The notes beneath the pieces were generated by a model. The model did not search any database and was not told the DNA's origin. It saw only the letters and a program-made list of their open reading frames with translations. Of a stretch of DNA of 64,000 nt, positions 46,601-59,013 are shown piece after piece (positions within the stretch are counted from its first letter, which is position 1; the number at the start of each line of letters is the position of its first letter). The stretch is taken from contig CAZSFZ010000005.1 of NCBI GenBank assembly GCA_964606385.1, positions 40,650-104,649 on the forward strand, written 5' to 3'. This stretch comes from an uncultured bacterium (GTDB lineage Bacteria > Omnitrophota > Omnitrophia > Omnitrophales > Aquincolibacteriaceae). The position numbers and the translations under genes are program-made.

Positions 46601-46882
46601 CGAGGAGCCGTGACCGATACGCTTGTGAACGATTACGCGAATCTCCTGGAAGTGGTGGCGGCGATCCACTGTGCGGATATCATTTCACGTCAGCCCAATT
46701 TGCTGAAGCAGCCCGAGCTTTTGAAAGCCGAACTTCTTAAGACGCTTTTCCGTCAGGAGCAGGGCGCTGTTGAGAACCTGATCCAGGTGCGCGCGGGAGG
46801 ACGCGGATTTACGGTCTCGAGCGCGGCGGTGAAGGTCTATCTCGAGATGATGGCGAAGCAGTCGGTCGAGAAGGCAGCGTAA
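31637..46882 (+). CDS. Giant secreted/membrane multidomain protein (5081 aa). N-terminal signal/TM; kinase-like (~36120-36650); internal signal-like segment (37739-37808) followed by HEFFGH metallopeptidase motif (38018-38035); TM pair (~39040-39210); second internal signal-like segment (39815-39890) followed by PG_binding_1 domain (~39900-40110) and SLT-like region; SpoT-type HD domain (~41650-41830); PRTase-like motif (~42985-43025); HemK-like methyltransferase (~44790-45290, NPPW); TrmB-like methyltransferase (~45370-45600)
   Basis: 15.2-kb stop-free frame. Motifs read: AIALGVAFVFTLTSITWSTPTLAAPS; KVTLTRSAGD...EEFIEG...PRDMHSNNFVV...MVDIG (kinase-like); AQHEFFGHG; YGFYGPKTKAAVTRLQ...DGDYGPGTDRALRAWQ; AHSGQKRKNGDPYFRHPLEMA...LLHDTRED; FVIADDASYSGTQI; LEMGIGSGALT...FDVIFWNPPW; LFVEVGVGDGKKSMLVAESRPDANFILIEPE. 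Ten RSE[VLA]R motifs mark the boundaries. Confidence 0.85.
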   Translation: MFKKSGQTHRRGSRAIALGVAFVFTLTSITWSTPTLAAPSDVSLAPAMPIEKLSIPAEMGSISKTYRGSGDVAPHDRMVVLIQDAHAVVDAQENISKILGHLGKAYGIRLTALEGAKGRLEPILFRAFPDPIVKRNILAGYENRAELSGPEMASVFQEEAADFRGMEDWALYEQNYFAYLRGQEKKEALLKKWSGFKEKRDKERAKVYDEKLNEFQEARENFLAERSSLLDLLVYLSNFKPLFSSGDYKELPGLIDSMGYEKAGKSEALVPMVRKIADEFKVKYLRSLGVKTEMNFYNRYQAFMTGQITAGQMLQYLVQVGREHGKNIKLTPALKKLLGHAELLSEIRGSTLYEELQRFLPVVEASLLKTPEQRKMADVYGKLFLLRELIELELTHEALEKYQKEPDAYLDLLGDPQFRKDLVPALEFYRAALERDQAFLAKINAMMADSKQNNAAVVAGGFHTNGIERLLKNKGISYAVVTPKIASLAGIENYAKVMKGDISFKDDLKTTYFDALMRHASKALIEALPIPDRVRTLKTWRDNLIRELAKQGRITEAGKYLPYIDGILQTMPEMVSAVGPVRTKEETLDLIRKELERFKKDSLERIWKTFEFQLGVFTDGLKQLIAKKDLNESSVSLLLNRASQTKPQFVSWVQCLDGEIGVLGQSVPMVPDTSNIFATRPQILDELGRIAQGTPLGIAGPAIAATAAQLSKIGMATEEAVRSGEIGTPEPSVTGPAVEGIVDQLAAGADKRVVAAQLANEMNSQLPGRIAPTSDLRSEARSELRAELEKRLGAMRSFGRNERFAGATVRIYLEKKGEFYEWVVKASDANIFHFVMRENLAGELVGYYQRFEVDRQSRSETAQGDIHTVGESKAFGNHHFFAGKRDQSMDPLHFSVRPGKDAKGAFVNIEVESKEKGVEVRWDGSMEKVPEKVLEAKKEEVPHDDTPTAETVETLEPEESVTNREAFGPEQYTLAGITRSPRTISVDVPAFRFRNGRIEQNPDYHNPALEGDESFSEIVRALEKELSGLSQQDQAVLTQAANGWILGDDAVSDWITHAVHLLNERDYTKRDLGLRDFIRQYLKDSLRYLRASGQEQARFAEELAKHYRYFSRTQLLREKPQSKFSVLHGSDLSRLRIAPEGDSRSLSPHVMTIEPIVYQFNKGRRFRGEEIPPEKLVFAKWKGRTFLFYTSRTHAVAGVTQHTWRHAEAYFGLRGGWLVKHMGESYPENMDDLPPQIGQLLDEIIYSPDVRTLQSSEAFVKRADELGLLNFTDWNELATIFEARSADDLKRTMGKVRGAGLVDKLSGMKVNPQILQARDYMLEQFNNPDADDESPTQNFEEPETETWDTPTRSEVRDALSSEQNIAGSVERIGQALLKVAPKNLAGVDIAEAAVAVQAFRSDMGGNVKVVFQPDRTAENPRPKKVMLSDGEGEIILLRSQDLLDMIDLRYVGREMNIKENIREEDIPAFKRPEVAEIHQELKLFLSTLTRNRFLEMVRNISGDSSLQWEDLGGDVSLDAYMAGSNKHVFKVTLTRSAGDALSFAVATKIGRTDASIAQTEINEMEVLNDRPEQVTPRFGGARHTKGRRWYVEEFIEGKTVRDLEKENRVTEDVRRGVISALLSVSMGLKGKMPRDMHSNNFVVRQSDGRVIMVDIGVNRFNVLDQIDNAIQKETQAHHRIASLAVILAQYGYVEGSPEQNDFIFDTLMNDEDLPPGEGKRWVEGVYQNLAGRDVSEIADFLHNRKWLNHFRSIFESRGYGEYPTEEQSKSALRSVASMLQTSITRYAEERGMKSGQPSVSLIPSVGERSTRSEVRTGSDGADASIPGNVRTQALAEIGGVMISARSLADMVPFVQDAIRVAVAGNNYQGLEEFSEILTVMVPALDGQDHVFIVAPRFPTKENKVGTFHQELVEKAGLGSRKKEMIRASLDFAPMGVLEEIYLIPSISGLRVGDDGTVDASSKLPELKQFGSFLFDVFSGMGYTPQDLDKIKLTLDSSVQDALGGREIRLSQLAEVSAEDASRSELRLRDMYGYLMNKVLMPAVLAVWLALPSFATAQPNQPYSARFDPAMGMEAGAENLYSGYRALNEFAIDPVTGSIPYLENNPLGRFVKLFAVDRISADFFWVAQHEFFGHGAQSREVGDYGSSYRMNFETPRLEYFNGYRIFGWWSGAASRGDREYSTDESLETIAGGMESTQVMSDWIRWNMFRYGATAQDAVLYYVSKLDLTDYIETTPSPASRAGLIVKGGGNSDVDAYGEEMTAKYGEDADLWSDMERAALWNALDPTIWISAFRQLDYVARGTREFRLPRILPYTGANLTPLGPEYYLGAHFTAAELYYDVYGRKGVGPAGEFYGAGLRVGDIDLGNGYSLGMNLDAWDQERFGFAVRTTVSKSLSDRFRISAGADYKTEGYLKGRQSDEGVSGFISVQGALSRPEVRSTSGRSELREGEVSVKAGLFDAVIQLNEAVKYLIMPASMLAGFYLWKSSLLLLAKASLLPEGTLMIVASFTTAFLGVVLGANAMLRLLFNPERTTIYRGIHGSADTILDVLRRGDIVEAPKPSDEIAWSEVIGHFGGKPSSSLKSMTPQKRWAEYYTLFSAYGQKDVSRGERFLNAFKEIFARKFMKDQRIKIVTTPEEGAQLLSELQEQGGINGEIGLLETVPGVPNAQSRMLYWNPFGGHIEIALAYGVTPKEISTVEIFIPREGNEHLGLEALSERAAGSVRSELRGMISRMTLGLTMAAILSFSALSAEGAQKRDAKTSQIQTELVSMGYLQDSDVQGNYGFYGPKTKAAVTRLQTDLKKTGHYKGPIDGDYGPGTDRALRAWQQAQGTAPAVPEAAVPVEGDQDVIDALEDLRGLRRDAPEHIFNLLLDSGQRRLSFDAKSELVSQMSFQEVLEKVSVRSGLAASEFERIAQKYDVPVESLIARGFKENPKFDPLVSGPDGRDIGLFQVRIDTVRDGRFFPLLKDLAVQEGLLKGAEAKASSRSITDAKLKQILKDSSINAEMSIMIHKTYSQEVARLKTVTVTGAAGIGSQALEVYLSGDYLEKGQAAYNIGVGNFQKIVNTVSVSGISGLPASLAKVARRGQAYAAEIEGFQEVLEATNNVPSTGQDLLAMNTRGRSEVRTVDQSEIAERVAAKHPSSSRFSKEPILGFEIMSVDWKNIPKAIRDRLGKVDQTYKEGVEKVLAANIGGFIALQMKGDQPDFYIVSPRVAQGKYQKTVIGYEGYDKLVRAMKAGVVEMIRMSDLGYSKDESVSIQVDWGSGPEKQTKPAGQDAYLAHDGKQWYMLNVNVEGLPISYVPVSASGSAANRVDLMIKGLIDVIARRQNLSDEDRKKVEMIAELAKTAHSGQKRKNGDPYFRHPLEMAWYMMTRFGNYSPVEFQVNLLHDTREDQAEFYEAIKAILDDMFAQLEKLGDSAQTEQDRRNYNLIRLGVRLLTKIVPEEVRGADGTVKWQITHKDVNGKDVTRTFDSEADADAAGQIQYYTQMLNPHRYFRKEIIAAGISEDEAARIRGRYADYDDAFIRGIQQAKLSDRIVNTRDLMNLFNPQVEQTDSIRKFPARMIGKTLDWMIPNLVEAENAGQGLHPDDRRMFYEGFVGILVDYANLDTGLNPMVKPLKDAALATLRDPRLQVGIEIAGMRREVDEAIQHRSEVRAGEVQPLRLNEQKENEFYERWGESLKKSGHRSPQALINIAQHIRESRQVVSYADFLGQMKGMQPKLAAALGTTGSYAVVWDEPAEGEADHMKLHKSRRWAWSLIRDGLRAPSAEIYGNELGKARGVSTFVIADDASYSGTQIRETIERISKANPRAQITIAVPYMTSRAERVIRSRRGLPEGVSIRVLEHETMPTLSEILTKSERDLFADNRTAFGTVTIDGKSYDVLLTAVTLFDHKVADSWSVYQRLAQFYDPVTPPYKNERSAYYQEESGTLAAEEVPVRAEVLEPEFYKTETKFQLVDSSARPGEPEAQKVPTLRAFEVFNLDLTTEEQRNVVERIQNGQAPNVMLLTREALLSKGAFTADTKAGIFPAELRGTELALGDNGKALFQTLYVNLLDPRLQGEGNIRVSVAGLFRIRVDRADITGFSEPLYLVILNKNRRTPEGLLTVGAIGGAYQTQGVAAPQDIRGLIEKPDSEAFLQWFVTGQGRETNPLREFEEEVLGAAGDQVNLFDELPTALRNFKTRSEAREQMVDMDVGKTYAMTLGSNGVWEKKEVGADVWPKNAEDIKPGRMGMIDLTAAGHRPIGFELNFCSALVLFTPTAVYYAHSFFENLNNLHDTNRLIRNQFYGREQQVTAMLGWGTDYQRMPAEKQEKLVSQQKAFGDILSEGFNTLSLEPGENIILKVAFDPKTQTLYARQEKPVGRSEAREEDATSSVLRVKGDKIPILVRDFIGTQIKSGTSALEMGIGSGALTRDLAEGASRLKDVQFVGVDINPEAVQMSRSLLGKYRNVRVLESDLFSAFTKGEKFDVIFWNPPWSSQGEAGTLALAKSDPGFETLSRFFKEAPMFLKPGGKVFLIMPVEAMEEIWEDASAKFEIDRKGWEKTKNSNIGIFELKPRALEQVQASDAVISSDSDWREVFQDNSRPLFVEVGVGDGKKSMLVAESRPDANFILIEPEASAFQKLQQTVRDSGLTNIRIVRGQDGDLFDLQKGSGFIDLIYCVAPFVNTPWPYFFSEGPKAPTYQRALSLLKSRGEILVMPDETLAGEWYDHFEGQYPNAEIVPQSRVFPGLNAALERYHQQVLDFKYSDPIVITRRSENRAVSGFWSSVESKDIVAEARDKGPDAARAMFERSGRTELGKIGDAYDAGSTDLMSVLRDAPSMSAALPEAVAQLSGRMGNDANLFNWPALQAGLENILMPTAMALETVNADVANIVPAQMKLLIDTLANIKGSLTIGLDLGTGKDAEIGSAVLEQLIKAIGERSGIVNELAVSGKLPGPARQTLKSRGINDRPIRPNQSFIPINAQDAVPLVMSSSAANGVIHQVFYPIVGDRGAVTDTLVNDYANLLEVVAAIHCADIISRQPNLLKQPELLKAELLKTLFRQEQGAVENLIQVRAGGRGFTVSSAAVKVYLEMMAKQSVEKAA

Positions 46883-49007: not shown

Positions 49008-52000
49008 ATGGCCGAACAAACCCTCGAAAAATCCGAAGCAAAATCCACCGGTAAAAAATTCGTTACGATGGATGGCGGCGAAGCCGTCGCCCACGTAGCG
49101 TTCCGCATCAACGAATGTATCGCGATCTATCCCATTACGCCTTCCTCCACCATGGGGGAATGGGCGGATGAATGGGCCGCCCAGGGCAGGAAGAATATCT
49201 GGGGGACCGTTCCGTCGGTTTCCGAGCTCCAGAGCGAAGCGGGCGCGGCGGGTGCCGTGCACGGCGCGCTTCAGCGCGGCGCTTTGACGACGACTTTTAC
49301 CGCGTCGCAGGGTCTTCTTCTCATGATCCCGAATATGTATAAGATCGCCGGCGAACTCACCGCGACCGTGATGCATGTCTCCGCTCGTTCTCTCGCGTGC
49401 CAGGCGCTCTCGATCTTCGGCGACCATTCGGATGTCATGTCGGTGCGTCAGACCGGTTACGCGCTTCTGGCTTCGAACTCAGTCCAGGAAGCGATGGATT
49501 TCGCGCTTATCTCACAAGCGGCCAGCCTTGAGTCCCGTATTCCTTTCCTTCATTTCTTTGACGGTTTCCGGACCTCCCACGAAGTTCAAAAGATATGCGT
49601 TGTTTCCGATGACCAGATCCGCAGCATGATCGATATGAACCGGGTCTTGGAACATCGTGCCCGCGCGCTTTCCCCGGACAATCCCGTGCTTCGCGGCACC
49701 GCGCAGAACCCGGACGTTTATTTCCAGGGCCGTGAGACGGTGAACAAGTTCTATACCGCCTGTCCCGATATCGTCCAGAAGACGATGGATAAATTCGCAA
49801 GCATCACCGGCCGGAAATACCAGTTGTTCGAATATTTCGGAGCCAAGGACGCCGATCAGGTCATCGTGATCATGGGTTCGGGCGTCGAAGTGGTCACCGA
49901 GACCGTCAAAGCGCTGAACGCCAAGGGCGCGAAATTCGGCTGCCTGAAGGTTTCTTTGTACCGTCCTTTCGATGTGAAACGTTTCATGAGCCTCATCCCG
50001 CAGACGGTCAAGAACCTGATCGTGTTGGACCGCACCAAAGAACCGGGGTCGCTCGGCGAGCCTCTTTATATGGATGTGGCCACCGCACTCCAGGAAGCCG
50101 CGCAGAACGGCTGGGCCAAGTTCAATCAGACGCCTAAGGTCTATGGCGGCCGTTACGGTCTTTCCTCAAAGGAATTCACACCCGCGATGGTGAAAGGTAT
50201 TTTCGACGCCTTTGCGGCCGGGAAAGGGAAACACGGGTTCACGATCGGTATTACCGACGATGTGACGAACCTGAGCCTTGATTATGACTCGGAATTTTCG
50301 ATTGAGTCCGATTCCACCAAGCGCGCGCTTTTCTACGGCTTGGGCGCGGACGGTACGGTGGGCGCGAACAAGAACTCCATCAAGATCATTGGGGAAAATA
50401 CGGAAAACTACGGTCAGGGGTATTTCGTCTACGATTCCAAAAAGTCCGGCGCGATCACGGTGTCGCATCTCCGCTTCGGGCCCGAGCCTATCCGCTCTCC
50501 GTATCTCATCAGTAAGGCTCATTTTGTGGCGTGTCATCAGACCGTATTCCTCGAAAAATACGATATGCTTCGCAATGTCATGCCGGGCGGAACTTTTCTC
50601 CTGAACGCTCCCTGGGGCGCCGAAGAAGTGTGGCCGAATATTCCCGTCGAAGTCCAGAAGCAGATCATCGAGAAAAAACTGAAATTGTTCGTGATCGATG
50701 CTTACAAGGTCGCGGCCGACAGCGGCATGGGGATGAGGATCAACACGATCATGCAGGTCTGCTTTTTCGCGATCTCCGGCGTGCTGCCGCGCGAGCAGGC
50801 GATCGAAGAGATCAAGAAATCGATCAAGAAGACGTATGGCAAGAAGGGCGATGAGGTCGTTCAGCAGAATCTCAAGGCCGTGGATATGACGCTCGCGCAT
50901 CTCCATGAAGTGAAAGTGCCCGCGACAGCCGATAGCAAGCTTAAACGGCTTGCTCCTGTGACTGAGAATGCCCCGGAGTTCGTGAAAAATGTTCTTGGCC
51001 TTATTGTTCAGGGCCGCGGCGACGAACTTCCCGTGAGCGCGATGCCGGTCGACGGCACCTTTCCAACTGCAACGACCCAGTACGAAAAGCGCAATATCGC
51101 GCTGGAGATCCCGGTGTGGGAGCAAGACATTTGTATCCAGTGCGGTAAGTGTAATTTTGTGTGTCCGCATGCCGTGATCCGCATGAAGGTTTATGACCCG
51201 AAGCATCTTGAAGGCGCTCCGGAAGGATTTAAATCCGCGGATGCCAAGATGCCGGATTTTAAAGGACAGAAGTTCACGATCCAGATCGCGCCCGAGGATT
51301 GCACCGGTTGCGGCCTTTGCGTGGATACGTGTCCGGCGAAGAGCAAAACGGATCCCAAGAAAAAAGCCATCAATATGGCGCCTCAGATGCCGCTTCGCTG
51401 CGTCGAGGCTCCCAAGTGGGAGTTCTTCCTCAATATTCCGGAATATGACCGCCGGAAGTTGAAAACGACGATGATCAATCAGCAGCAAGCAATGCGTCCG
51501 CTCTTTGAATTCTCCGGGGCTTGCGCCGGTTGCGGCGAAACGCCTTACGTTAAGATCGTGTCCCAGCTTTTCGGGGACCGGGCCGTGATCGCCAATGCTA
51601 CCGGTTGTTCTTCCATTTACGGAGGCAACCTGCCGACGACGCCATGGGCCCAGGACGCGAACGGCCGTGGTCCGGCGTGGTCGAATTCACTTTTTGAGGA
51701 TTGCGCCGAATTCGGATTCGGTTTCCGGATGGCGATCGATAAGCAGAAAGAATATGCCTCGGAACTTCTCGTGAAGCTTCAAGACAAGATCGGCGCGGAC
51801 CTCGTGCAGGGGCTTTTAAAGGCTTCGCAGCAGACCGAAGCCGAGATCTACGATCAACGCGAACGCGTCGCCGAGCTCAAAAAGAAACTTGCGACGCTTG
51901 GTAATGACGCGGATGTTAAGGACCTTCTTAGCATTGCGGATACGCTTGTGAAAAAGAGCGTCTGGTTGTTTGGCGGCGACGGTTGGGCTTACGATATCGG

Positions 52001-52631
52001 GTTCGGCGGCCTGGATCATGTGCTCGCTTCGGGCAAGAACGTGAATGCCTTCGTGCTTGATACGGAGGTTTATTCCAACACGGGCGGTCAGGCTTCAAAA
52101 TCCACCCCGCGCGCCGCGACGGCAAAGTTTGCGATGGGTGGAAAAGCCGGCGGCAAGAAAGACCTCGGCATGATCGCTATGTCTTACGGGAATATCTATG
52201 TTGCGACGATCGCGATGGGGGCGAACGATCAGCAGGCCCTGAAGGCGATCCAGGAGGCCGAGTCCTATGACGGCCCATCGCTTATCATCGCGTACAGCCA
52301 TTGCATCGCGCACGGCATCAATATGATCAACGGGCTTCAGGATCAAAAGGCCGCGGTGGCGTCCGGTCAATGGATCCTTTACCGATTCGATCCGCGCCGT
52401 ACCGAAAAGGGGGAGAATCCGCTTGTGCTGGATTCTAAGGCGCCCACGATCCCGCTTGAGCAGTACCTCAAGATGGAGAACCGTTTCAAGATGATCATGA
52501 AGAGCAATCCCGAAGAAGCCAAGAAGCTTTTCGAGATCGCGCAAAAAGAAGTCACGGCGCGGTGGAAGCGTTTCGAGTATTTGGCGCAGGCGAAACCTTC
52601 GATCGAAGCCCCCAACCCGACGACCGTTTAA
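49008..52631 (+). CDS. nifJ: Pyruvate:ferredoxin (flavodoxin) oxidoreductase, single-chain PFOR
   Basis: Two 4Fe-4S ferredoxin motifs (CIQCGKCNFVCPHA; CTGCGLCVDTCPA), TPP-binding GGDGWAYDIGFGGLDHV, ~1200 aa. Confidence 0.95.
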   Translation: MAEQTLEKSEAKSTGKKFVTMDGGEAVAHVAFRINECIAIYPITPSSTMGEWADEWAAQGRKNIWGTVPSVSELQSEAGAAGAVHGALQRGALTTTFTASQGLLLMIPNMYKIAGELTATVMHVSARSLACQALSIFGDHSDVMSVRQTGYALLASNSVQEAMDFALISQAASLESRIPFLHFFDGFRTSHEVQKICVVSDDQIRSMIDMNRVLEHRARALSPDNPVLRGTAQNPDVYFQGRETVNKFYTACPDIVQKTMDKFASITGRKYQLFEYFGAKDADQVIVIMGSGVEVVTETVKALNAKGAKFGCLKVSLYRPFDVKRFMSLIPQTVKNLIVLDRTKEPGSLGEPLYMDVATALQEAAQNGWAKFNQTPKVYGGRYGLSSKEFTPAMVKGIFDAFAAGKGKHGFTIGITDDVTNLSLDYDSEFSIESDSTKRALFYGLGADGTVGANKNSIKIIGENTENYGQGYFVYDSKKSGAITVSHLRFGPEPIRSPYLISKAHFVACHQTVFLEKYDMLRNVMPGGTFLLNAPWGAEEVWPNIPVEVQKQIIEKKLKLFVIDAYKVAADSGMGMRINTIMQVCFFAISGVLPREQAIEEIKKSIKKTYGKKGDEVVQQNLKAVDMTLAHLHEVKVPATADSKLKRLAPVTENAPEFVKNVLGLIVQGRGDELPVSAMPVDGTFPTATTQYEKRNIALEIPVWEQDICIQCGKCNFVCPHAVIRMKVYDPKHLEGAPEGFKSADAKMPDFKGQKFTIQIAPEDCTGCGLCVDTCPAKSKTDPKKKAINMAPQMPLRCVEAPKWEFFLNIPEYDRRKLKTTMINQQQAMRPLFEFSGACAGCGETPYVKIVSQLFGDRAVIANATGCSSIYGGNLPTTPWAQDANGRGPAWSNSLFEDCAEFGFGFRMAIDKQKEYASELLVKLQDKIGADLVQGLLKASQQTEAEIYDQRERVAELKKKLATLGNDADVKDLLSIADTLVKKSVWLFGGDGWAYDIGFGGLDHVLASGKNVNAFVLDTEVYSNTGGQASKSTPRAATAKFAMGGKAGGKKDLGMIAMSYGNIYVATIAMGANDQQALKAIQEAESYDGPSLIIAYSHCIAHGINMINGLQDQKAAVASGQWILYRFDPRRTEKGENPLVLDSKAPTIPLEQYLKMENRFKMIMKSNPEEAKKLFEIAQKEVTARWKRFEYLAQAKPSIEAPNPTTV

Positions 52632-52642
52632 GGAGAAAAAGT

Positions 52643-54781
52643 ATGAGCGCAGAGGCTGTGGTGACATCCAAGAAGAAAGATCTGAAGGCCCTTTTTGAAC
52701 CGAAGGTCATCGCGGTGGTCGGAGCCTCCCGGCGTACCGAGGCGGTAGGCTACGCCATTCTTAAAAACCTTTTGCAGACCGGGTATAAAGGCAAGATCTA
52801 TCCGGTGAACCCCAAAGCGGCGGATATCCTGGGTGTGAAATGCATCCCGACCGTGGCGGAGATCCCTGAAGAGATCGATATGGCGGTCTTTATCATTCCC
52901 GGGGCTTCCGTTCCTGCGGAGCTGGAGGCTTGCGCGAAAAAAGGCGCGCGCGCCGCGATCGTTATTTCGGCTGGTTTCCGGGAGATCGGGGGCGAAGGGG
53001 TCAAGCTCGAACAGGAGATCAAACGTATTTCCGATCAATACGGCATCGCCGTGTTGGGTCCCAATTGTCTCGGGCTTATCAACAATGACCCGAACTTTTC
53101 CGTCAATGCGAGTTTTGCCGGAACGATCCCCAAGAACGGGAACATCGCTTTCATTTCTCAGAGCGGGGCATTGGGGACGGCGCTTTTGGATTATGCTCAC
53201 GGCGAAAATGTCGGCTTTTCGAAATTTGTGAGCCTTGGGAATAAAGTGGATGTCACGGAGCTCGAGATCCTTCAATACCTGAAAGACGATCCGAATACCG
53301 ATGTGATCATGATGTACCTTGAGGACATCGGAAAAGGCCAGGAATTCATTGAGATCGCCCGCGAGATCACGGGAGATATCGCCAAGACTAAACCGATCCT
53401 TGTACTCAAGTCGGGCCGTACGGCACAAGGCGCCAAAGCTGCGAGTTCTCATACGGGCTCCCTGATGGGGGCCGACGAGGTTTATGACGCCGTATTCACT
53501 CAATCGGGTGTCATGCGCGTGGATTCCGCGCAGGAAATGTTCGATCTCGCGATCGTGTTCGCGAATCAGCCCCTCATGAAGGGGAACCGCGTTGCGATCG
53601 TGACGAATGCCGGAGGGCCGGGCATTATGGCGACGGATGCCTGCGTCAAGTTCGGACTTCAGATGGCCGAGATGAGCCCGGTGACGGTCGCCAAGCTCAA
53701 GGAAAAACTTCCGCCCACCTCAAATTTCTCCAATCCGATCGATGTGATCGGGGATGCCCAGCACGATCGCTACGAACACGCGCTGCGCTGCGTGATCGCG
53801 GAACCCAATGTGGACGGTGTGTTGGTTCTTCTCACGCCTCAGGCGATGACAGAGGCGGAGGCAACGGCAAAAATTATTGTGGATGTTGATAAAGAATCGG
53901 ACAAAACGATCGTGACTTGCTTCATGGGGCATTCGGATGTCGAGGCGGGTGTGAAAGTCCTCAAAGAGCACATGATCCCTCATTGTTCTTTCCCGGAGGA
54001 TTCGGCGCGGACGCTGGCCGCGATGAACCGGTACCAGCAGTGGCTTCACCGATCCCGGACCGGCGTGAAGCATTATCCCGTGGACCGCCAGGCTGCGGAT
54101 GTTGTTATTATGAGAGCGCAGAAGGAAAAGCAAAAGTTCCTTCCGATCAATCAGTCGATGGAGATTTTTAGCGCTTACAAGTTTCCGGTGATCCCTTGGG
54201 CGTTTGTCCGTACGGCCGAAGATGCCTGGGAGCAGGCGGTGAAGATCGGTTTTCCGGTCGTGATGAAAGTTGTTTCCCAGCAGATCATCCACAAAGTCGA
54301 CGTGGGCGGCGTGCGTCTTAATTTGAACAACGCGGATGATGTTCAGCATGCGTTCAAGGACATCATGGCGGTGGGCGAACGGCTCCGGGCCAAGATCGAC
54401 GGTGTTTTCATGCAGCGTATGGCCCCTAAAGGCAGGGAAGTTATCCTCGGGATGAAGCGGGATCCCCATTTCGGTCCGATCCTGATGTTCGGGCTCGGCG
54501 GCATCTATGTGGAAGCCTTAAAGGACGTCACGTTCCGCGTGGCTCCGATCCGTGAGCTGAGCGCTTATGACATGCTGCGCAACATCCGCGCTTTCAAGCT
54601 TCTCGAAGGCGTGCGCGGCGAACCGCCGGCGGACCTTGAAGCGATCGCGGACTGTCTCAAACGGCTTTCCCAGCTTTCCTGTGACCATCCCGACATCGAC
54701 GAGATCGATATCAATCCCTTGATGGTGTATGGCGAAGGCAAGGGTGCCGGCGTGATTGATGCCCGCATCATTTTAAAATAA
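52643..54781 (+). CDS. Acetyl-CoA synthetase (ADP-forming), fused alpha/beta; acetate--CoA ligase
   Basis: CoA-binding KVIAVVGASRRTEAVGYAI, succinyl-CoA-synthetase-like ligase-CoA domain, C-terminal ATP-grasp; RBS AGGAGA 6 nt upstream of ATG 52643, 11 nt after the PFOR stop. Confidence 0.88.
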   Translation: MSAEAVVTSKKKDLKALFEPKVIAVVGASRRTEAVGYAILKNLLQTGYKGKIYPVNPKAADILGVKCIPTVAEIPEEIDMAVFIIPGASVPAELEACAKKGARAAIVISAGFREIGGEGVKLEQEIKRISDQYGIAVLGPNCLGLINNDPNFSVNASFAGTIPKNGNIAFISQSGALGTALLDYAHGENVGFSKFVSLGNKVDVTELEILQYLKDDPNTDVIMMYLEDIGKGQEFIEIAREITGDIAKTKPILVLKSGRTAQGAKAASSHTGSLMGADEVYDAVFTQSGVMRVDSAQEMFDLAIVFANQPLMKGNRVAIVTNAGGPGIMATDACVKFGLQMAEMSPVTVAKLKEKLPPTSNFSNPIDVIGDAQHDRYEHALRCVIAEPNVDGVLVLLTPQAMTEAEATAKIIVDVDKESDKTIVTCFMGHSDVEAGVKVLKEHMIPHCSFPEDSARTLAAMNRYQQWLHRSRTGVKHYPVDRQAADVVIMRAQKEKQKFLPINQSMEIFSAYKFPVIPWAFVRTAEDAWEQAVKIGFPVVMKVVSQQIIHKVDVGGVRLNLNNADDVQHAFKDIMAVGERLRAKIDGVFMQRMAPKGREVILGMKRDPHFGPILMFGLGGIYVEALKDVTFRVAPIRELSAYDMLRNIRAFKLLEGVRGEPPADLEAIADCLKRLSQLSCDHPDIDEIDINPLMVYGEGKGAGVIDARIILK

Positions 54782-55650: not shown

Positions 55651-55982
55651 TTTCAAGTATTTTTTTCGAAAAAAAATATCTCCGACCGTTCCCTCGCTAA
55701 AAAAATCTGATTATTTTTCTTGAAACTTTTTTCTGATGCGAATATCATCCTCGCTGTTTGAAATAAATCCTTGTGGGGCGGCATCCATTAAAATTTTTCA
55801 GAGGTTCGGGATTCATAAGCAACCCGCAAAACAAAGTTCGCTTCAGAGTTCTAGCAGCATTCAATATGGTTCATAACGAGAGTTCATGATTCACCGCTTG
55901 TACTAGATATGGGGCAGGGCCAAAAAAAACTACAATATATGGCCTTGTAGCCGATAACTAGGAGGCGAATAAGGGAGATCCT
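55651..55982 (+). promoter_or_regulatory. AT-rich leader/promoter region of nrdD with an A/T palindrome (ATTTTTTTTCGAAAAAAAAT) and two NrdR-box-like sequences (CAATATATGG at ~55936; CAATATGG at ~55860)
   Basis: Composition shift; palindromes read directly; partial resemblance to the NrdR box core (C-w-A-t-A-T-a-T-w-G). Confidence 0.35.
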
Positions 55983-58043
55983 ATGGCTGATATGTTCCTT
56001 TCCAAGAAGATCACCAGCATCCGCAAACGCGATGGTTCCATCGTTCCGTTCGATGGCGCCAAGATCTATAACGCGATCGTGAAGGCGGGGCAGGCGACGG
56101 GGGAATATGACGGCGCGGAAGCCCAGATCTTAACCTTAGAAGTTGTAAAAGTTATTGATAACCGTTACTCTCCGGGATTCCTCGATATCGAAAAGATCCA
56201 GGATATCGTGGAGCAGGTCCTCATCTCCTCGAATCATCTCAAAACCGCCCGCGCGTACATCGTCTACCGCGAACAGCACAAGAAGTTGCGCCGTGATAAG
56301 AAGACGGTAGTCGACGTTACCTCGTCCGTGAACGAATACCTTTATAAGCTCGATTGGCGCGTGAACGCGAACGCCAATCAGGGTTATTCCCTCGGCGGCA
56401 TGATCCTCAATATATCCGGCAAGGTGATCGCGAACTATTGGCTCTCTCATGTCTATCCCGAAGAAGTCGCGAACGCCCATCGCCACGGGGATGTCCATAT
56501 CCACGATCTGGACATGCTCTCGGGTTATTGCGCGGGGTGGTCTCTCAAAACGCTCATCCGCGAAGGTTTCAACGGGGTTCCCGACAAAGTGGAATCGGCT
56601 CCCCCGAAACATCTGAGCTCCGCGGTCGGGCAAATGGTGAATTTTCTCGGTACGCTACAGAACGAATGGGCAGGCGCGCAGGCGTTCTCTTCTTTCGATA
56701 CCTATCTTGCGCCGTTCATCCGGATCGACAAGCTTCCGTATGAAGAGGTGAAACAGAGCATTCAGGAATTCATCTATAACCTGAATGTTCCTTCCCGCTG
56801 GGGGACGCAGACGCCTTTCACGAACGTGACCTTTGACTGGACCTGCCCGGAGGACCTCAAGAACGAGCATCCGGTCATCGGCGGCAAGGAAGTGGATTTT
56901 GTGTACGGGGACCTGCAGGAAGAAATGGCCATGATCAACAAGGCTTATATCGAGGTCATGATGCGCGGCGACGCCAAGGGCCGCGTGTTCACGTTCCCGA
57001 TCCCGACCTACAACATTACGCCGGACTTTGACTGGGACCATCCCAACTGTGAGCCGCTTTTTGAGATGACCGCGAAGTACGGGTTGCCTTATTTTCAGAA
57101 CTTCCTCAATTCAGACCTCAAACCGAATCATGTCCGTTCCATGTGCTGCCGGCTTCAGCTCGATCTCCGCGAACTCCTGAAACGCGGGAACGGCCTTTTT
57201 GGTTCCGCGGAACAGACCGGTTCGCTCGGCGTCGTGACGCTCAATTGTGCCAGGATCGGTTATCTCTCTAAAGGGGACGAAAATGCTTTCTTTAACCGCA
57301 TCGATACGCTTCTCCAGATCGCGAAGACGAGCCTCGAGCTCAAACGCAAGATCATCCAGCGTCACATGGACGCCGGGCTTTTCCCGTATACCAAACGCTA
57401 TCTCGGGACGCTCCGTAATCATTTTTCAACGATCGGCGTGAACGGGATCAATGAATGCGTCCGCAATTTCACAAGCGGCAAGGAGAATATTACGACCCAG
57501 GCCGGCTATGAGTTCGCGCTCAAGATGCTCGATCATATCCGCGCGCGCATCGTCGCTTTTCAGGAGGAGACGGGTCATCTGTACAATCTTGAAGCGACGC
57601 CCGCGGAAGGCGCGACCTATCGTTTTGCCAGAGAGGACCTCAAGCGCTTTCCGGACATTCTCCATGCCGGGACCGCCGAGCGCCCCTACTACACGAATTC
57701 TTCCCAGCTGCCGGCGGGGTTCACGGACGATCCGTTCGAAGCTTTGGGGCGCCAGGAGGCCTTGCAGCGGCGCTATACCGGCGGGACGGTGCTGCATCTT
57801 TACATGGGGGAACGCGTTTCGAGTTCGGAGTCCTGCAAAAAGCTTGTGCGGCGGGCCCTGGAAGGCTACCGGATCCCTTATATCACGATCACGCCGACCT
57901 TTTCGATCTGTCCGACGCACGGTTATCTGGCCGGCGAACATGAATTCTGCACGAAGTGTGATCAGGAGCTTATCAATCAAAAAATGTTCCAGCCTGAGAC
58001 CGCGGGATCCGAGTCCGCCGCGGCCACGGAAATCAAGGTTTAA
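55983..58043 (+). CDS. nrdD: Anaerobic ribonucleoside-triphosphate reductase (class III) large protein, lacking the C-terminal glycyl-radical segment
   Basis: N-terminal ATP-cone (ITSIRKRDGSIVPFDGAKIYNAIVKAG), class III RNR core, C-terminal Cys cluster CPTHGYLAGEHEFCTKCD. It ends at TAA 58041-58043, in-frame with the next ORF. Confidence 0.9.
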   Translation: MADMFLSKKITSIRKRDGSIVPFDGAKIYNAIVKAGQATGEYDGAEAQILTLEVVKVIDNRYSPGFLDIEKIQDIVEQVLISSNHLKTARAYIVYREQHKKLRRDKKTVVDVTSSVNEYLYKLDWRVNANANQGYSLGGMILNISGKVIANYWLSHVYPEEVANAHRHGDVHIHDLDMLSGYCAGWSLKTLIREGFNGVPDKVESAPPKHLSSAVGQMVNFLGTLQNEWAGAQAFSSFDTYLAPFIRIDKLPYEEVKQSIQEFIYNLNVPSRWGTQTPFTNVTFDWTCPEDLKNEHPVIGGKEVDFVYGDLQEEMAMINKAYIEVMMRGDAKGRVFTFPIPTYNITPDFDWDHPNCEPLFEMTAKYGLPYFQNFLNSDLKPNHVRSMCCRLQLDLRELLKRGNGLFGSAEQTGSLGVVTLNCARIGYLSKGDENAFFNRIDTLLQIAKTSLELKRKIIQRHMDAGLFPYTKRYLGTLRNHFSTIGVNGINECVRNFTSGKENITTQAGYEFALKMLDHIRARIVAFQEETGHLYNLEATPAEGATYRFAREDLKRFPDILHAGTAERPYYTNSSQLPAGFTDDPFEALGRQEALQRRYTGGTVLHLYMGERVSSSESCKKLVRRALEGYRIPYITITPTFSICPTHGYLAGEHEFCTKCDQELINQKMFQPETAGSESAAATEIKV

Positions 58044-58058
58044 ACAGAGGAGGCAAGG

Positions 58059-58232
58059 ATGACCCAGGATCAAGTCGTTTTGAAAGACGAAGAACGGACG
58101 CGCTGCGAGGTCTGGACGCGCGTGATGGGGTATCATCGCCCGGTCGCCGGGTTCAATGTGGGGAAAAAAGGCGAATTTTATGAACGGAAATATTTCGCCG
58201 AGCCCAAAGAAGCCGGGTGCGGTTGTTCCTAG
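58059..58232 (+). CDS. Stand-alone NrdD C-terminal glycyl-radical domain (57 aa)
   Basis: RCEVWTRVMGYHRPVAGFNVGKKGEFYERKYF matches the class III RNR glycyl-radical motif (R-V-x-G-Y-x-R-P-V ... G-K ... E-R-K). RBS GAGGAGG 6 nt upstream. Same reading frame as nrdD, separated only by one TAA and 5 codons. Confidence 0.65.
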   Translation: MTQDQVVLKDEERTRCEVWTRVMGYHRPVAGFNVGKKGEFYERKYFAEPKEAGCGCS

Positions 58233-58265
58233 CACTGCATTTTAAAAAATAACGGTTTGCAGTGC
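58232..58265. repeat. 8-bp perfect palindrome pair GCACTGCA...TGCAGTGC with an AT-rich 18-nt loop, overlapping the stop of the glycyl-radical mini-ORF
   Basis: Read directly; possible attenuator or terminator between the mini-ORF and nrdG. Confidence 0.4.
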
Positions 58266-58290
58266 TTGTACCGTTAACCCATGAAATCTA

Positions 58291-59013
58291 ATGAAGAACG
58301 GTGCTGAAGCTCTGACCGATATCTGCGTCGCGGGCATCACGCCCTTTACGACGATAGATTTCCCCGGCCGTCTGGCCGGGGTTTTCTATCTCCAGGGGTG
58401 TCCGTGGCGGTGCCGTTACTGCTATAACGCCGAGTTCTGGCCATTACCTCCCGAAGGACAGCGCGTTCCCGCCGAGAAGATCCTCGAGTTCCTGGATTCC
58501 CGTAAAAATCATCTTGATGGCATTGTCTTTTCAGGTGGAGATCCTACGGTCCATGAGCGTCTTCCTGTCTGGATGAAAACCGTGAAAGACATGGGGTTTG
58601 AAATCGGTCTTCACACCGGCGGGATGTTTCCGGACCGTCTTGTCAACATCCTGCCGCTTTGCGATTGGGTCGGCCTCGATATCAAAGCTCCTTTCGATCG
58701 CTATGAAAAAGTGACGCAAATCGCTGGAAGCGGGGAGAAGGCCCATCGGAGCGCGGAACTTGTCCTTGCGAGCGGCGTATCCTATGAATTCCGCACGACT
58801 TTTCATCCCGCGTTGCTTTCTGAAGAAGATGTGCTCGCGATGGCCCAAAAGCTTGCCGGAATGGGATGTAAGCGTTATGCTCTTCAAATGTTCCGACCCG
58901 ATCATTGTGCTGATAAAGAGCTTCGCGAAAGTTCTGTCCCTGCGGCCGGCATTTCCGCGGCGCTTCGCCAGAACCTCAAAACTTATTTCTCGGAATTTCT
59001 TATTAGGGAATAA
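58291..59013 (+). CDS. nrdG: Anaerobic ribonucleotide reductase activating protein (radical SAM)
   Basis: GCPWRCRYCYN (CxxxCxxC radical-SAM cluster), directly downstream of nrdD. Confidence 0.88.
   Translation: MKNGAEALTDICVAGITPFTTIDFPGRLAGVFYLQGCPWRCRYCYNAEFWPLPPEGQRVPAEKILEFLDSRKNHLDGIVFSGGDPTVHERLPVWMKTVKDMGFEIGLHTGGMFPDRLVNILPLCDWVGLDIKAPFDRYEKVTQIAGSGEKAHRSAELVLASGVSYEFRTTFHPALLSEEDVLAMAQKLAGMGCKRYALQMFRPDHCADKELRESSVPAAGISAALRQNLKTYFSEFLIRE

What the first reader, a model, noticed from the sequence alone, without database searches (positions are those of the whole stretch)
58041..58232. nrdD interrupted by a single in-frame TAA; the glycyl-radical domain is encoded as a separate 57-aa ORF with its own RBS
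The class III RNR gene stops at TAA 58041-58043. The frame continues TEEAR and then ATG 58059 (RBS GAGGAGG) into MTQDQ...RCEVWTRVMGYHRPVAGFNVGKKGEFYERKYF, which is the canonical NrdD C-terminal glycyl-radical motif. Either the radical domain is a detachable mini-subunit, analogous to the GrcA/YfiD spare part for pyruvate formate-lyase, or the TAA is read through or recoded, or the gene is a recent pseudogene. Each option is mechanistically interesting for a radical enzyme.
Basis: partly seen in the sequence, partly recalled or inferred. Interest (0 to 1): 0.65.

Follow-up and report, generated by a model that had tools for sequence, protein, structure and literature searches.

The report
Two-piece anaerobic ribonucleotide reductase, detachable radical subunit
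The anaerobic enzyme that makes DNA building blocks is encoded here in two pieces, a 686-residue catalytic body and a separately translated 57-residue mini-protein carrying the radical glycine; this is the conserved design of a large bacterial clade rather than a broken gene, and it seems not to have been described, although free-standing radical "spare parts" are so far known for only one other enzyme.

Summary
nrdD (55983-58043) ends at TAA just after its zinc ribbon. A 57-aa ORF (58059-58232) with its own GAGGAGG and ATG carries the glycyl-radical motif RVMGY, and nrdG follows.

It is not an error, a pseudogene or a read-through site:
- Three independent assemblies are identical here.
- All 120 closest homologues of the large protein lack the glycine motif.
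- The small protein has 441 clusters at E<=1e-10, and the best 150 are essentially all 53-117 aa.
- At least 600 species genomes carry its signature.
- In 79 adjacent gene pairs the small gene sits in frame 0, +1 or +2 (20/20/39). Gaps run from -41 to +287 nt, and all three stop codons are used.
- dN/dS is about 0.02.

So the in-frame TAA here is incidental.

The enzyme belongs to the "MCCR" (NrdDh4-like) branch of class III reductases. Its sister clade is uniformly fused. The split probably arose once, and one phage lineage appears to have re-fused.

Orphan copies of the small gene occur in prophages, phage replication modules, a plasmid and beside an IS element.

Best reading: an obligate, separately made and probably exchangeable radical subunit. 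I found no paper describing it, and structure prediction could not resolve how it docks.

The parts
55900..55945 (+). Two NrdR-box-like 16-mers (GTACTAGATATGGGGC at 55900-55915 and CTACAATATATGGCCT at 55930-55945), 30 nt apart, upstream of nrdD. Probably the operator of the NrdR repressor.
   Evidence: Read directly. Similar box pairs at about -85 and -54 lie upstream of nrdD in relatives L014 and L016, and single boxes in L005, L009, L017, L018, L003, L007 and L011. In the window only the second box reached that scan's threshold. The first is my reading of the sequence, and it matches the first box of L014 at 14 of 16 positions. The consensus itself is recalled from the literature, not tested here. 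A loose pattern search over the window was non-specific.
55983..58043 (+). nrdD large subunit, 686 aa. It has an ATP-cone, a class III RNR barrel with MCCR (387-390), GNGLFG (402-407) and C183, and a zinc ribbon C643-P-x-H646 ... C656-x-x-C659-D. It ends in a 26-residue tail and carries no glycyl-radical motif.
   Evidence: Pfam ATP-cone and NRDD positions 2-529/562. NCBIfam PRK08270 at 1138.7 bits. The listed residues are invariant in 49 sequences. The AF2 barrel has pLDDT 85-97 and matches solved class III RNRs with TM 0.64-0.74.
58041..58043 (+). TAA stop codon of the large subunit gene.
   Evidence: It is identical in two other assemblies. Homologous genes end in TGA (42), TAA (29) or TAG (8).
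58047..58053 (+). Shine-Dalgarno sequence GAGGAGG of the small gene, 5 nt before its ATG.
   Evidence: All 85 distinct homologous small ORFs have an SD-like motif of at least 4 nt, and 84 of 85 start with ATG. My start-site choice favoured SD motifs, so this count is somewhat biased.
58059..58232 (+). Small glycyl-radical subunit gene, 57 aa: MTQDQVVLKDEERTRCEVWTRVMGYHRPVAGFNVGKKGEFYERKYFAEPKEAGCGCS. The radical glycine is Gly24 (codon 58128-58130).
   Evidence: Pfam NRDD positions 532-562/562. A profile of the family aligns to T. maritima NrdD residues 617-645, around Gly621. R13, C16, E17, W19, R21, V22, M23, G24, Y25, R27, P28, N33, K36, E39 and R43 are invariant in 41 diverse homologues. 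dN/dS is 0.012-0.045.
58231..58266 (+). Hairpin with a 9-bp stem (AGCACUGCA / UGCAGUGCU) and an 18-nt loop, between the small gene and nrdG. It could be a partial terminator or an mRNA stabiliser that sets a lower nrdG dose.
   Evidence: Fold energy is -14.3 kcal/mol, z = -2.44, and 3 of 200 shuffles fold as well. There is no T-run, and the terminator scan did not call it. The spacing between the small gene and nrdG is not conserved in relatives. This is weak evidence.
58291..59013 (+). nrdG, the radical-SAM activase of the NrdG2 type, 240 aa.
   Evidence: TIGR02495 NrdG2 at 187.5 bits against a cut-off of 131. Pfam Radical_SAM and Fer4_12. nrdG lies just downstream of the small gene in nearly all complete adjacent loci; in L015 it is 1.9 kb away.

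Best explanation
This is a naturally split class III (anaerobic) ribonucleotide reductase made of two polypeptides.

The 686-aa large subunit supplies the ATP-cone, the catalytic barrel with the MCCR cysteines, and the zinc ribbon. The 57-aa small subunit is translated from its own ribosome-binding site and supplies the loop bearing the radical glycine (Gly24 in RVMGY).

Shown here: two separate genes with separate translation signals, conserved and under purifying selection across hundreds of species, and a large subunit that never carries the glycine.

Inferred:
- NrdG abstracts the hydrogen from Gly24 of the small subunit, either free or bound.
- The small subunit docks non-covalently where the C-terminal radical domain sits in fused NrdD. 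Its loop inserts into the barrel next to the finger-loop cysteine and generates the thiyl radical.
- Oxygen destroys a glycyl-radical enzyme by cutting the chain at the radical glycine. In this design the cell loses only a 6.5-kDa cartridge, which can be replaced and re-armed while the large subunit is kept.

Orphan copies of the small gene in prophages, phage replication modules and a plasmid fit such exchangeability.

The in-frame position of the TAA in this window is a coincidence.
For: (1) The domains divide exactly between the two ORFs, and a family profile aligns the small ORF to the Gly621 loop of T. maritima NrdD.

(2) All 120 best homologues of the large subunit are at least 74% identical and come from Omnitrophota, Rhodospirillum rubrum, Sulfuricella, Coriobacteriia and others. 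All end right after the zinc ribbon and lack the glycine motif.

(3) The small protein has 4972 hits, and the top 120 are all 52-100 aa. In the library clustered at 50% identity there are 441 clusters at E<=1e-10. The best 150 are 53-117 aa apart from one spurious repeat protein.

(4) At least 600 species genomes carry the CE[VI]WTRVM signature. All 80 loci examined are split and none is fused.

(5) In 79 adjacent pairs the relative frame is 0/+1/+2 = 20/20/39, the gap runs from -41 to +287 nt, and the large gene stops at TGA, TAA or TAG. Every small ORF has its own start codon and SD-like motif.

(6) dN/dS is 0.012-0.045, with 11 synonymous and 0 non-synonymous changes against L013.

(7) The same arrangement is on Cupriavidus necator H16 pHG1, where RefSeq already lists a 66-aa 'nrdD' between the 676-aa reductase and nrdG. 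A genome paper cites earlier work showing that this locus is essential for full denitrification and anaerobic growth on nitrate (PMC2864759). So the split enzyme works in vivo.

(8) Fused relatives show where the break fell. In the phage fused form the sequence runs ...C-E-K-C-G-E-A-C-E-V-W-T-R-V-M-G-Y.

(9) Orphan small genes occur between a lysis cassette and an integrase (L106), in a phage replication module (L134), on an Allochromatium plasmid and beside an IS200/605 transposase-like gene in Sutterella (my reading of the ORF).
Against: No direct evidence of translation, complex formation or radical formation on the small protein is available here.

Two AlphaFold2 runs on the concatenated pair left the zinc ribbon, the tail and the whole small subunit below pLDDT 50, so docking is not supported structurally.

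The 'replaceable cartridge' advantage is an inference. The split also occurs in apparent strict anaerobes such as this Omnitrophota genome, which encodes PFOR, where oxygen damage may matter less.

Orphan copies in IMG/VR contigs could partly reflect host DNA in provirus predictions. No cultured phage in INPHARED carries the gene.
Confidence: 0.85

Rival explanations
1. Programmed read-through or recoding of the TAA yields a fused 749-aa NrdD, and the 57-aa ORF is not made on its own.
For: In this window the small ORF is in frame with nrdD and only 15 nt downstream. The same is true of 20 of 79 adjacent pairs.
Against: The frame is not conserved. 59 of 79 pairs are out of frame, including relatives 89-96% identical to the window (L013 +2, L014 +2, L015 +1). 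Gaps reach 287 nt (Chitinilyticum) and 142 nt (C. necator), and some pairs overlap by 4-41 nt. All three stop codons occur. Every small ORF has its own ATG and SD-like motif. In some phage contigs the small gene lies 2.8 kb upstream of the large gene.
Confidence: 0.03
2. The stop is a sequencing or assembly error, or the gene is a recent pseudogene.
For: A single stop codon inside what looks like one gene is the usual signature of such artefacts.
Against: Three independent assemblies are identical. All close and distant orthologues are split. Both parts are under strong purifying selection, and catalytic residues are invariant.
Confidence: 0.01
3. The small protein is not a catalytic subunit. 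It could be a regulator or decoy for NrdG, or a spare part for a different, fused NrdD. On this view the large protein works without it or is non-catalytic.
For: Orphan copies far from any large subunit gene exist. The docking model is unresolved.
Against: Class III RNR chemistry needs the glycyl radical, and the large subunit never carries it in any of 120 homologues. The locus is needed for anaerobic growth in C. necator. The two genes are adjacent in 79 of 85 distinct cases, nearly always followed by nrdG. The small protein keeps the family-specific radical-loop signature that is also found in the fused phage form of the same clade. The window holds no second nrdD.
Confidence: 0.06

Closest known systems
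Class III ribonucleotide reductase NrdD-NrdG, RNRdb2 subclass NrdDh (T. maritima NrdD, PDB 4COI; N. bacilliformis NrdD), specifically the 'MCCR' group NrdDh4
   Same: ATP-cone, barrel, zinc ribbon, MCCR motif with Phe in the following GNGLFG motif, RVxGY radical loop, and an adjacent NrdG activase.
   Different: The radical loop is on a separate 57-aa polypeptide. All characterised NrdDs (T4, E. coli, L. lactis, T. maritima, N. bacilliformis, P. copri, S. thermophilus) are single chains. The paper that defines NrdDh4 does not mention a split.
GrcA/YfiD of E. coli and Y06I of phage T4 (autonomous glycyl-radical cofactors, 'spare parts' for pyruvate formate-lyase)
   Same: A small free-standing protein that carries a glycyl-radical loop, presumably armed by the parent enzyme's activase and then inserted into a barrel. 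Phage-borne copies exist in both cases.
   Different: GrcA backs up a PFL that has its own radical domain and acts after oxygen cleavage. Here the large subunit has no radical domain, so the small protein is obligatory. It is homologous to the NrdD C-terminus, not the PFL C-terminus (Pfam NRDD), and is about 57-70 aa against 127 aa (the GrcA length is from my own knowledge). A 2026 review states that spare parts are known only for formate lyases (PMC13450708).
Split class II RNR NrdJa/NrdJb of Pseudomonas aeruginosa
   Same: A ribonucleotide reductase whose C-terminal functional module is encoded by a separate adjacent gene and works as a two-chain enzyme.
   Different: It is a different class (B12-dependent). 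[quoted passage not shown] A 2022 analysis suggested split domains may be distinct to class II (PMC9669993).
Genes-in-pieces RNRs of phages (nrdA of Aeromonas phage Aeh1 split by a homing endonuclease; intron or intein-interrupted nrdD)
   Same: An RNR coding sequence divided into two ORFs that still gives an active enzyme.
   Different: Those splits are caused by an inserted mobile element that sits between the halves. Here nothing is inserted: the gaps are -41 to 287 nt with no ORF. The split is fixed across a large cellular clade. This comparison rests on my own knowledge and was not tested.

Membership tests
Class III RNR catalytic subunit (NrdD) | NRDD alpha/beta barrel with finger-loop cysteine | tested here: met
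   Pfam PF13597 E 6e-178. The MCCR motif and C183 are invariant. The AF2 barrel matches solved NrdDs at TM 0.64-0.74.
Class III RNR catalytic subunit (NrdD) | C-terminal glycyl-radical motif (RVxGY) on the same polypeptide | tested here: not met
   The large ORF ends 27 residues after the last zinc-ribbon cysteine (C659), with no motif. The same holds for all 120 closest homologues. The motif is supplied by the adjacent 57-aa ORF.
Class III RNR catalytic subunit (NrdD) | Zinc ribbon before the radical loop | tested here: met
   C643-P-x-H646 ... C656-x-x-C659 is invariant in 49 sequences. Metal binding itself is not testable here.
Class III RNR system | Dedicated radical-SAM activase NrdG encoded alongside | tested here: met
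   TIGR02495 NrdG2 at 187.5 bits, above the cut-off of 131. The gene is at 58291-59013.
Class III RNR system | Glycyl radical formed and NTP reduced | not testable with these tools
   This needs EPR and activity assays. The only indirect support is the genetics of the homologous C. necator locus, as cited in PMC2864759.
RNRdb2 group NrdDh4 | MCCR instead of SCCR, with Phe in the putative finger-loop motif | tested here: met
   RSMCCRL (385-391) and GNGLFG (402-407). The definition comes from PMC4493059. The RNRdb profile itself was not run.
GrcA/YfiD spare-part proteins | Small stand-alone protein carrying a glycyl-radical loop | tested here: met
   A 57-aa ORF with RVMGY and its own SD and ATG. 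Homologues are 53-79 aa.
GrcA/YfiD spare-part proteins | Homology to the PFL C-terminal Gly_radical domain | tested here: not met
   The only Pfam hit is NRDD (PF13597), with no Gly_radical hit.
GrcA/YfiD spare-part proteins | Parent enzyme has its own radical domain, and the small protein replaces it after oxygen cleavage | tested here: not met
   The parent lacks the domain altogether, so the small protein is an obligate subunit. Replacement after damage is untested.
Programmed stop-codon read-through | Conserved in-frame downstream ORF, conserved stop context and no independent initiation | tested here: not met
   Frames are 20/20/39, three stop codons are used, gaps are -41..287 nt, and own SD and ATG are present throughout.
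Pseudogene | Relaxed selection and lineage-specific disruption | tested here: not met
   dN/dS is 0.012-0.045. The arrangement is shared by at least 600 species genomes.

The most novel reading that the evidence does not exclude
The small protein is a diffusible, exchangeable 'radical cartridge'. It would be armed by NrdG, docked into a large subunit that lacks a radical domain, discarded after oxygen cleavage and then replaced. Prophages, lytic-type phages and plasmids would carry orphan copies to arm or re-arm the host's large subunit. That would make it the first spare-part or autonomous glycyl-radical system outside pyruvate formate-lyase, and the first glycyl-radical enzyme whose radical domain is obligatorily supplied in trans. 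It is present in well-studied bacteria (Cupriavidus necator H16, Ralstonia solanacearum, Rhodospirillum rubrum, Bradyrhizobium, gut Sutterella), where it has been overlooked.
Probability: 0.45. Interest if true: 0.85.

Novelty: new variant of a known kind. Interest (0 to 1): 0.74.

Why it matters
Glycyl-radical enzymes are thought of as single chains whose C-terminal radical domain must swing out of the barrel to be activated, and which oxygen destroys by cutting the chain at the radical glycine.

A 2026 review states that free-standing radical 'spare parts' are known only for formate lyases and asks whether other such enzymes have them. This locus, and the clade it represents, answers that for ribonucleotide reductase. 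An entire widespread branch makes the radical domain as a separate ~60-residue protein.

Consequences:
- It is a natural two-piece system for studying activation in trans, domain docking and radical transfer.
- It suggests a cheap repair route after oxygen exposure in denitrifiers and facultative anaerobes.
- Many genome annotations either call a 670-aa protein a complete reductase or leave the small gene unannotated.
- Phages appear to carry the small gene alone.
- The evolutionary pattern (one fission, wide spread, one apparent re-fusion in phages) is a clean case of gene fission in an essential radical enzyme.

Tried and rejected
(1) AlphaFold2 of the concatenated large and small sequences was run twice. 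With 48 split-clade homologues the mean pLDDT was 66.6 and the small part scored 25-31. With 72 fused relatives plus 30 small homologues the mean was 76.2 and the barrel was good, but residues 639-743 stayed below 50. Docking is therefore unresolved.

(2) MAFFT could not place the small homologues correctly when split large subunits were in the same alignment (A3, A4, A6). Only an alignment without them (A7) was usable.

(3) I tested whether Cys16 of the small subunit completes an inter-subunit zinc site, and rejected the idea. The large subunit keeps four ligands of its own (C, H, C, C), and the fused sister clade has Thr or Ala at that position.

(4) I tested for an electrostatic 'zipper' between a basic large-subunit tail and the acidic LKDEER of the small subunit. 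Net charges are about 0 and -0.6, so it is not supported.

(5) I tested whether Cys pairs in the tails (CGCS here) are a conserved redox shuttle. Only 28 of 81 pairs have at least two Cys in either tail, and 24 have none.

(6) The small protein alone found nothing in the PDB by sequence. Only a family profile reached T. maritima NrdD, weakly (E 0.1).

(7) Cultured-phage records (INPHARED) hold no homologue of this small protein.

(8) Siedow et al. 1999 (PMC93980) and Wei et al. 2014 (PMC4246965) are not held. I could not check whether either noticed the small ORF.

(9) The annotation table for C. metallidurans CH34 was empty.

(10) A degenerate NrdR-box pattern search over the window was non-specific.
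Full report
**What is in the sequence**

- An ORF of 686 codons runs from 55983 to the TAA at 58041-58043.
- Fifteen nucleotides later, after GAGGAGG (58047-58053), an ATG at 58059 opens a 57-codon ORF that ends at 58232.
- nrdG (58291-59013) follows.

Against the Pfam NRDD model the large protein covers positions 2-529 of 562 and the small one covers 532-562. The large protein also has an N-terminal ATP-cone. NCBIfam gives the same division, and nrdG is of the NrdG2 type.

The break lies between the zinc ribbon (C643-P-x-H646 ... C656-x-x-C659) and the radical loop. The large protein aligns to T. maritima NrdD residues 100-614. A profile of the small protein aligns to residues 617-645, around the radical Gly621.

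**Not an artefact**

Two independent assemblies from other samples are identical over 400 nt including the TAA. Only one copy of each gene exists in the window.

**The split is the rule in this clade**

The 120 best homologues of the large protein are 74-100% identical and 670-748 aa long. They come from Omnitrophota, Rhodospirillum rubrum, Rhodocista, Sulfuricella, Coriobacteriia and others. All end shortly after the zinc ribbon, and none has the glycine motif.

The small protein has 4972 hits, and the top 120 are all 52-100 aa. In a library clustered at 50% identity there are 441 clusters at E<=1e-10. The best 150 are 53-117 aa, except one spurious repeat protein.

The 80 loci retrieved span Omnitrophota, Alpha-, Beta- and Gammaproteobacteria, gut Sutterella, Parachlamydiales and Holosporaceae. 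All are split.

In plasmid records the large protein's matches are bimodal. 158 records lie at 60-80% identity (Ralstonia, Cupriavidus, Bradyrhizobium, Paracoccus). In the rows listed, identity then falls straight to 26% or less, the classical fused NrdDs, apart from one fragmented Ralstonia match.

**Read-through and pseudogene are excluded**

Among 79 distinct adjacent pairs:
- The small gene is in frame 0, +1 or +2 relative to the large gene in 20, 20 and 39 cases.
- The gap ranges from -41 to +287 nt, with a median of 31.
- The large gene stops at TGA (42), TAA (29) or TAG (8).
- 84 of 85 small ORFs start with ATG, and all have an SD-like motif.

Even relatives 89-96% identical to the window differ in frame: L013 and L014 are +2, L015 is +1, and L016-L018 are 0. 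The in-frame TAA here is therefore incidental.

In the 41-codon core, the window differs from L013 by 11 synonymous and 0 non-synonymous changes. Unsaturated comparisons give dN/dS of 0.012-0.045.

**Functionality**

Catalytic and structural residues of the large protein are invariant. These include C183, M387-C-C-R390, GNGLFG and the zinc ligands.

The same three-gene arrangement lies on Cupriavidus necator H16 megaplasmid pHG1. RefSeq already lists a 66-aa 'nrdD' (WP_011154154) between the 676-aa reductase and nrdG. A genome paper reports, citing Siedow et al. 1999, that this locus is essential for full denitrification and anaerobic growth on nitrate. The same paper names the C. metallidurans genes Rmet_5137 and Rmet_5139, skipping the one in between (PMC2864759). 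I could not read the 1999 paper.

**Place in the family and origin of the split**

The MCCR motif, and the Phe in the motif that follows it, place the enzyme in the group called NrdDh4 in RNRdb2. This is a relative of the T. maritima enzyme and of the thioredoxin-using N. bacilliformis enzyme (PMC4493059).

A fused MCCR-type NrdD from a viral contig (L195, 704 aa) retrieved 120 homologues. They are cellular, largely Fibrobacterota and relatives, and also about 55% identical to the window protein. All are fused and all are MCCR-type, with the junction ...C-P-x-C-x-x-x-T-E-V-Y-S-R-I-V-G-Y.

Viral contigs hold 54 fused, 13 adjacent-split and several non-adjacent forms. The fused viral group closest to the window is 66-71% identical and lacks the ATP-cone. 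It reads ...C-E-K-C-G-E-A-C-E-V-W-T-R-V-M-G-Y-F, which is the radical-loop signature of the split clade.

A neighbour-joining tree (57 sequences, 547 columns, no support values) gives an all-fused clade and a split clade, with that fused viral group nested inside the split clade. The tentative reading is one fission, wide spread and one re-fusion in phages.

Compared with the fused forms, the split forms have gained three things:
- a 12-35-residue tail on the large subunit, beginning D-x-E-L-I-A-K-K;
- the intergenic signals;
- an N-terminal segment on the small subunit, of which L-K-D-E-E-R-x-x is conserved.

**Orphan small genes**

399 IMG/VR contigs encode a relative of the small protein. 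Of the best 80, 73 have neither a large subunit gene nor nrdG within 4 kb.
- In L106 the gene sits between holin-endolysin-spanin and an integrase.
- In L134 it sits between a family A DNA polymerase and a clamp-loader-like ATPase.
- In L177, L204 and L206 it lies 2.8 kb upstream of the large gene.
- Orphans also occur on Allochromatium vinosum plasmid pALVIN01.
- In Sutterella genomes, one lies beside what I read as an IS200/605 transposase gene.

PHROGs files the phage proteins under an 'unknown function' family. No cultured phage record has the gene. Some IMG/VR contigs may also include host DNA.

**Mechanism**

Shown: two genes, two translation starts, strong conservation, and a large subunit that never carries the radical glycine.

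Inferred from what is established for glycyl-radical enzymes: NrdG arms Gly24 of the small protein, whose loop then occupies the barrel position held by the C-terminal loop in T. maritima NrdD.

Oxygen cleaves these enzymes at the radical glycine, and GrcA can replace the damaged part of PFL (PMC13450708). A separate small subunit would likewise make the damaged part replaceable.

Two AlphaFold2 attempts gave a confident barrel that matches solved class III enzymes (TM 0.64-0.74). They left the zinc ribbon and the small subunit unresolved, so the docking step has no structural support here.

**Novelty**

None of nine full-text searches found a paper describing a split class III enzyme, or a free-standing radical protein for it.
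- A 2022 analysis suggests that split domains may be distinct to class II.
- A June 2026 review says spare-part proteins are known only for formate lyases and that it is 'yet to be determined' whether others exist.
- Annotation pipelines have seen the small gene: RefSeq names it nrdD.

The library lacks most subscription-journal papers, so prior description cannot be excluded. I class this as a new variant of a known kind.

Noticed in passing
window 20-17764 and 31637-46882 (+ strand): Two giant ORFs of 5914 and 5081 codons. A further long ORF starts after the glycosyltransferase gene; in L001 it is 1682 aa. Giant genes are a reported trait of Omnitrophota (my own knowledge). Their content was not examined.
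   Followed up: no
L106 4001-4165; L134 4001-4150; 73 of the 80 loci L093-L172: Orphan genes for the NrdD-type glycyl-radical mini-protein lie in viral contigs with no large subunit gene or nrdG within 4 kb. One sits between a lysis cassette and an integrase, and another in a replication module.
   Followed up: partly
L093 1234-3530 and L098 2699-3994: In one group of viral contigs the orphan small gene directly follows radical-SAM protein genes (phrog_1802; two in L093, one checked in L098). These are not NrdG-like. They could be alternative activases.
   Followed up: no
L197, L199, L201, L202, L205, L207-L211, L213, L214, L216, L217, L219-L227 and others: Many fused phage NrdDs of the MCCR type carry an extra C-terminal stretch with a T-C-P-N-C-K motif that looks thioredoxin- or NrdH-like. 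This would fit a redoxin-dependent enzyme with its reductant fused on. The identification is by eye, and no domain search was run.
   Followed up: no
L178-L191, L232, L239, L245, L247: A phage group about 48 kb long has a fused NrdD without an ATP-cone that carries the radical-loop signature of the split clade (CEVWTRVMGYF). It nests inside the split clade in an NJ tree, which suggests secondary re-fusion.
   Followed up: partly
window 58218-58229 (small subunit C-terminus GCGCS): Small subunits often end in Cys pairs (CGCS, CCQ, CGCSK), and some large-subunit tails end in CC. The feature is not universal: 28 of 81 pairs have at least two Cys in either tail, and 24 of 81 have none. Its function is unexplained.
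   Followed up: partly
L012 3501-3710 (Allochromatium vinosum pALVIN01); L042, L051, L055, L072 (Sutterella): Cellular orphan copies of the small gene lie away from any nrdD or nrdG. One is on a plasmid next to a CHAP-domain gene. Another lies beside what I read as an IS200/605 TnpB-like gene.
   Followed up: partly
plasmid and chromid records of Ralstonia solanacearum and C. metallidurans (hits H10-H27): The small ORF lies under 'none' in the PLSDB gene table for most Ralstonia megaplasmids. The CH34 genome paper lists NrdDG as Rmet_5137 and Rmet_5139, skipping the gene between them. The PLSDB table is incomplete, so this may overstate the annotation gap.
   Followed up: partly
P0254 (988 aa): This protein has ten repeats ending in GRCEVWTR and matched the small subunit by chance. 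The repeats are cysteine-rich and PAN/apple-like by eye. It is unrelated to RNR.
   Followed up: no
window 24683-27556: A 957-aa ORF combines transaldolase and phosphoglucose isomerase domains.
   Followed up: no
window 49008-54781: Pyruvate:ferredoxin oxidoreductase and an ADP-forming acetyl-CoA synthetase-like gene lie just upstream of the nrd operon. This is consistent with an anaerobic fermentative organism. Synteny with Omnitrophota MAGs (L005, L009) is conserved.
   Followed up: partly
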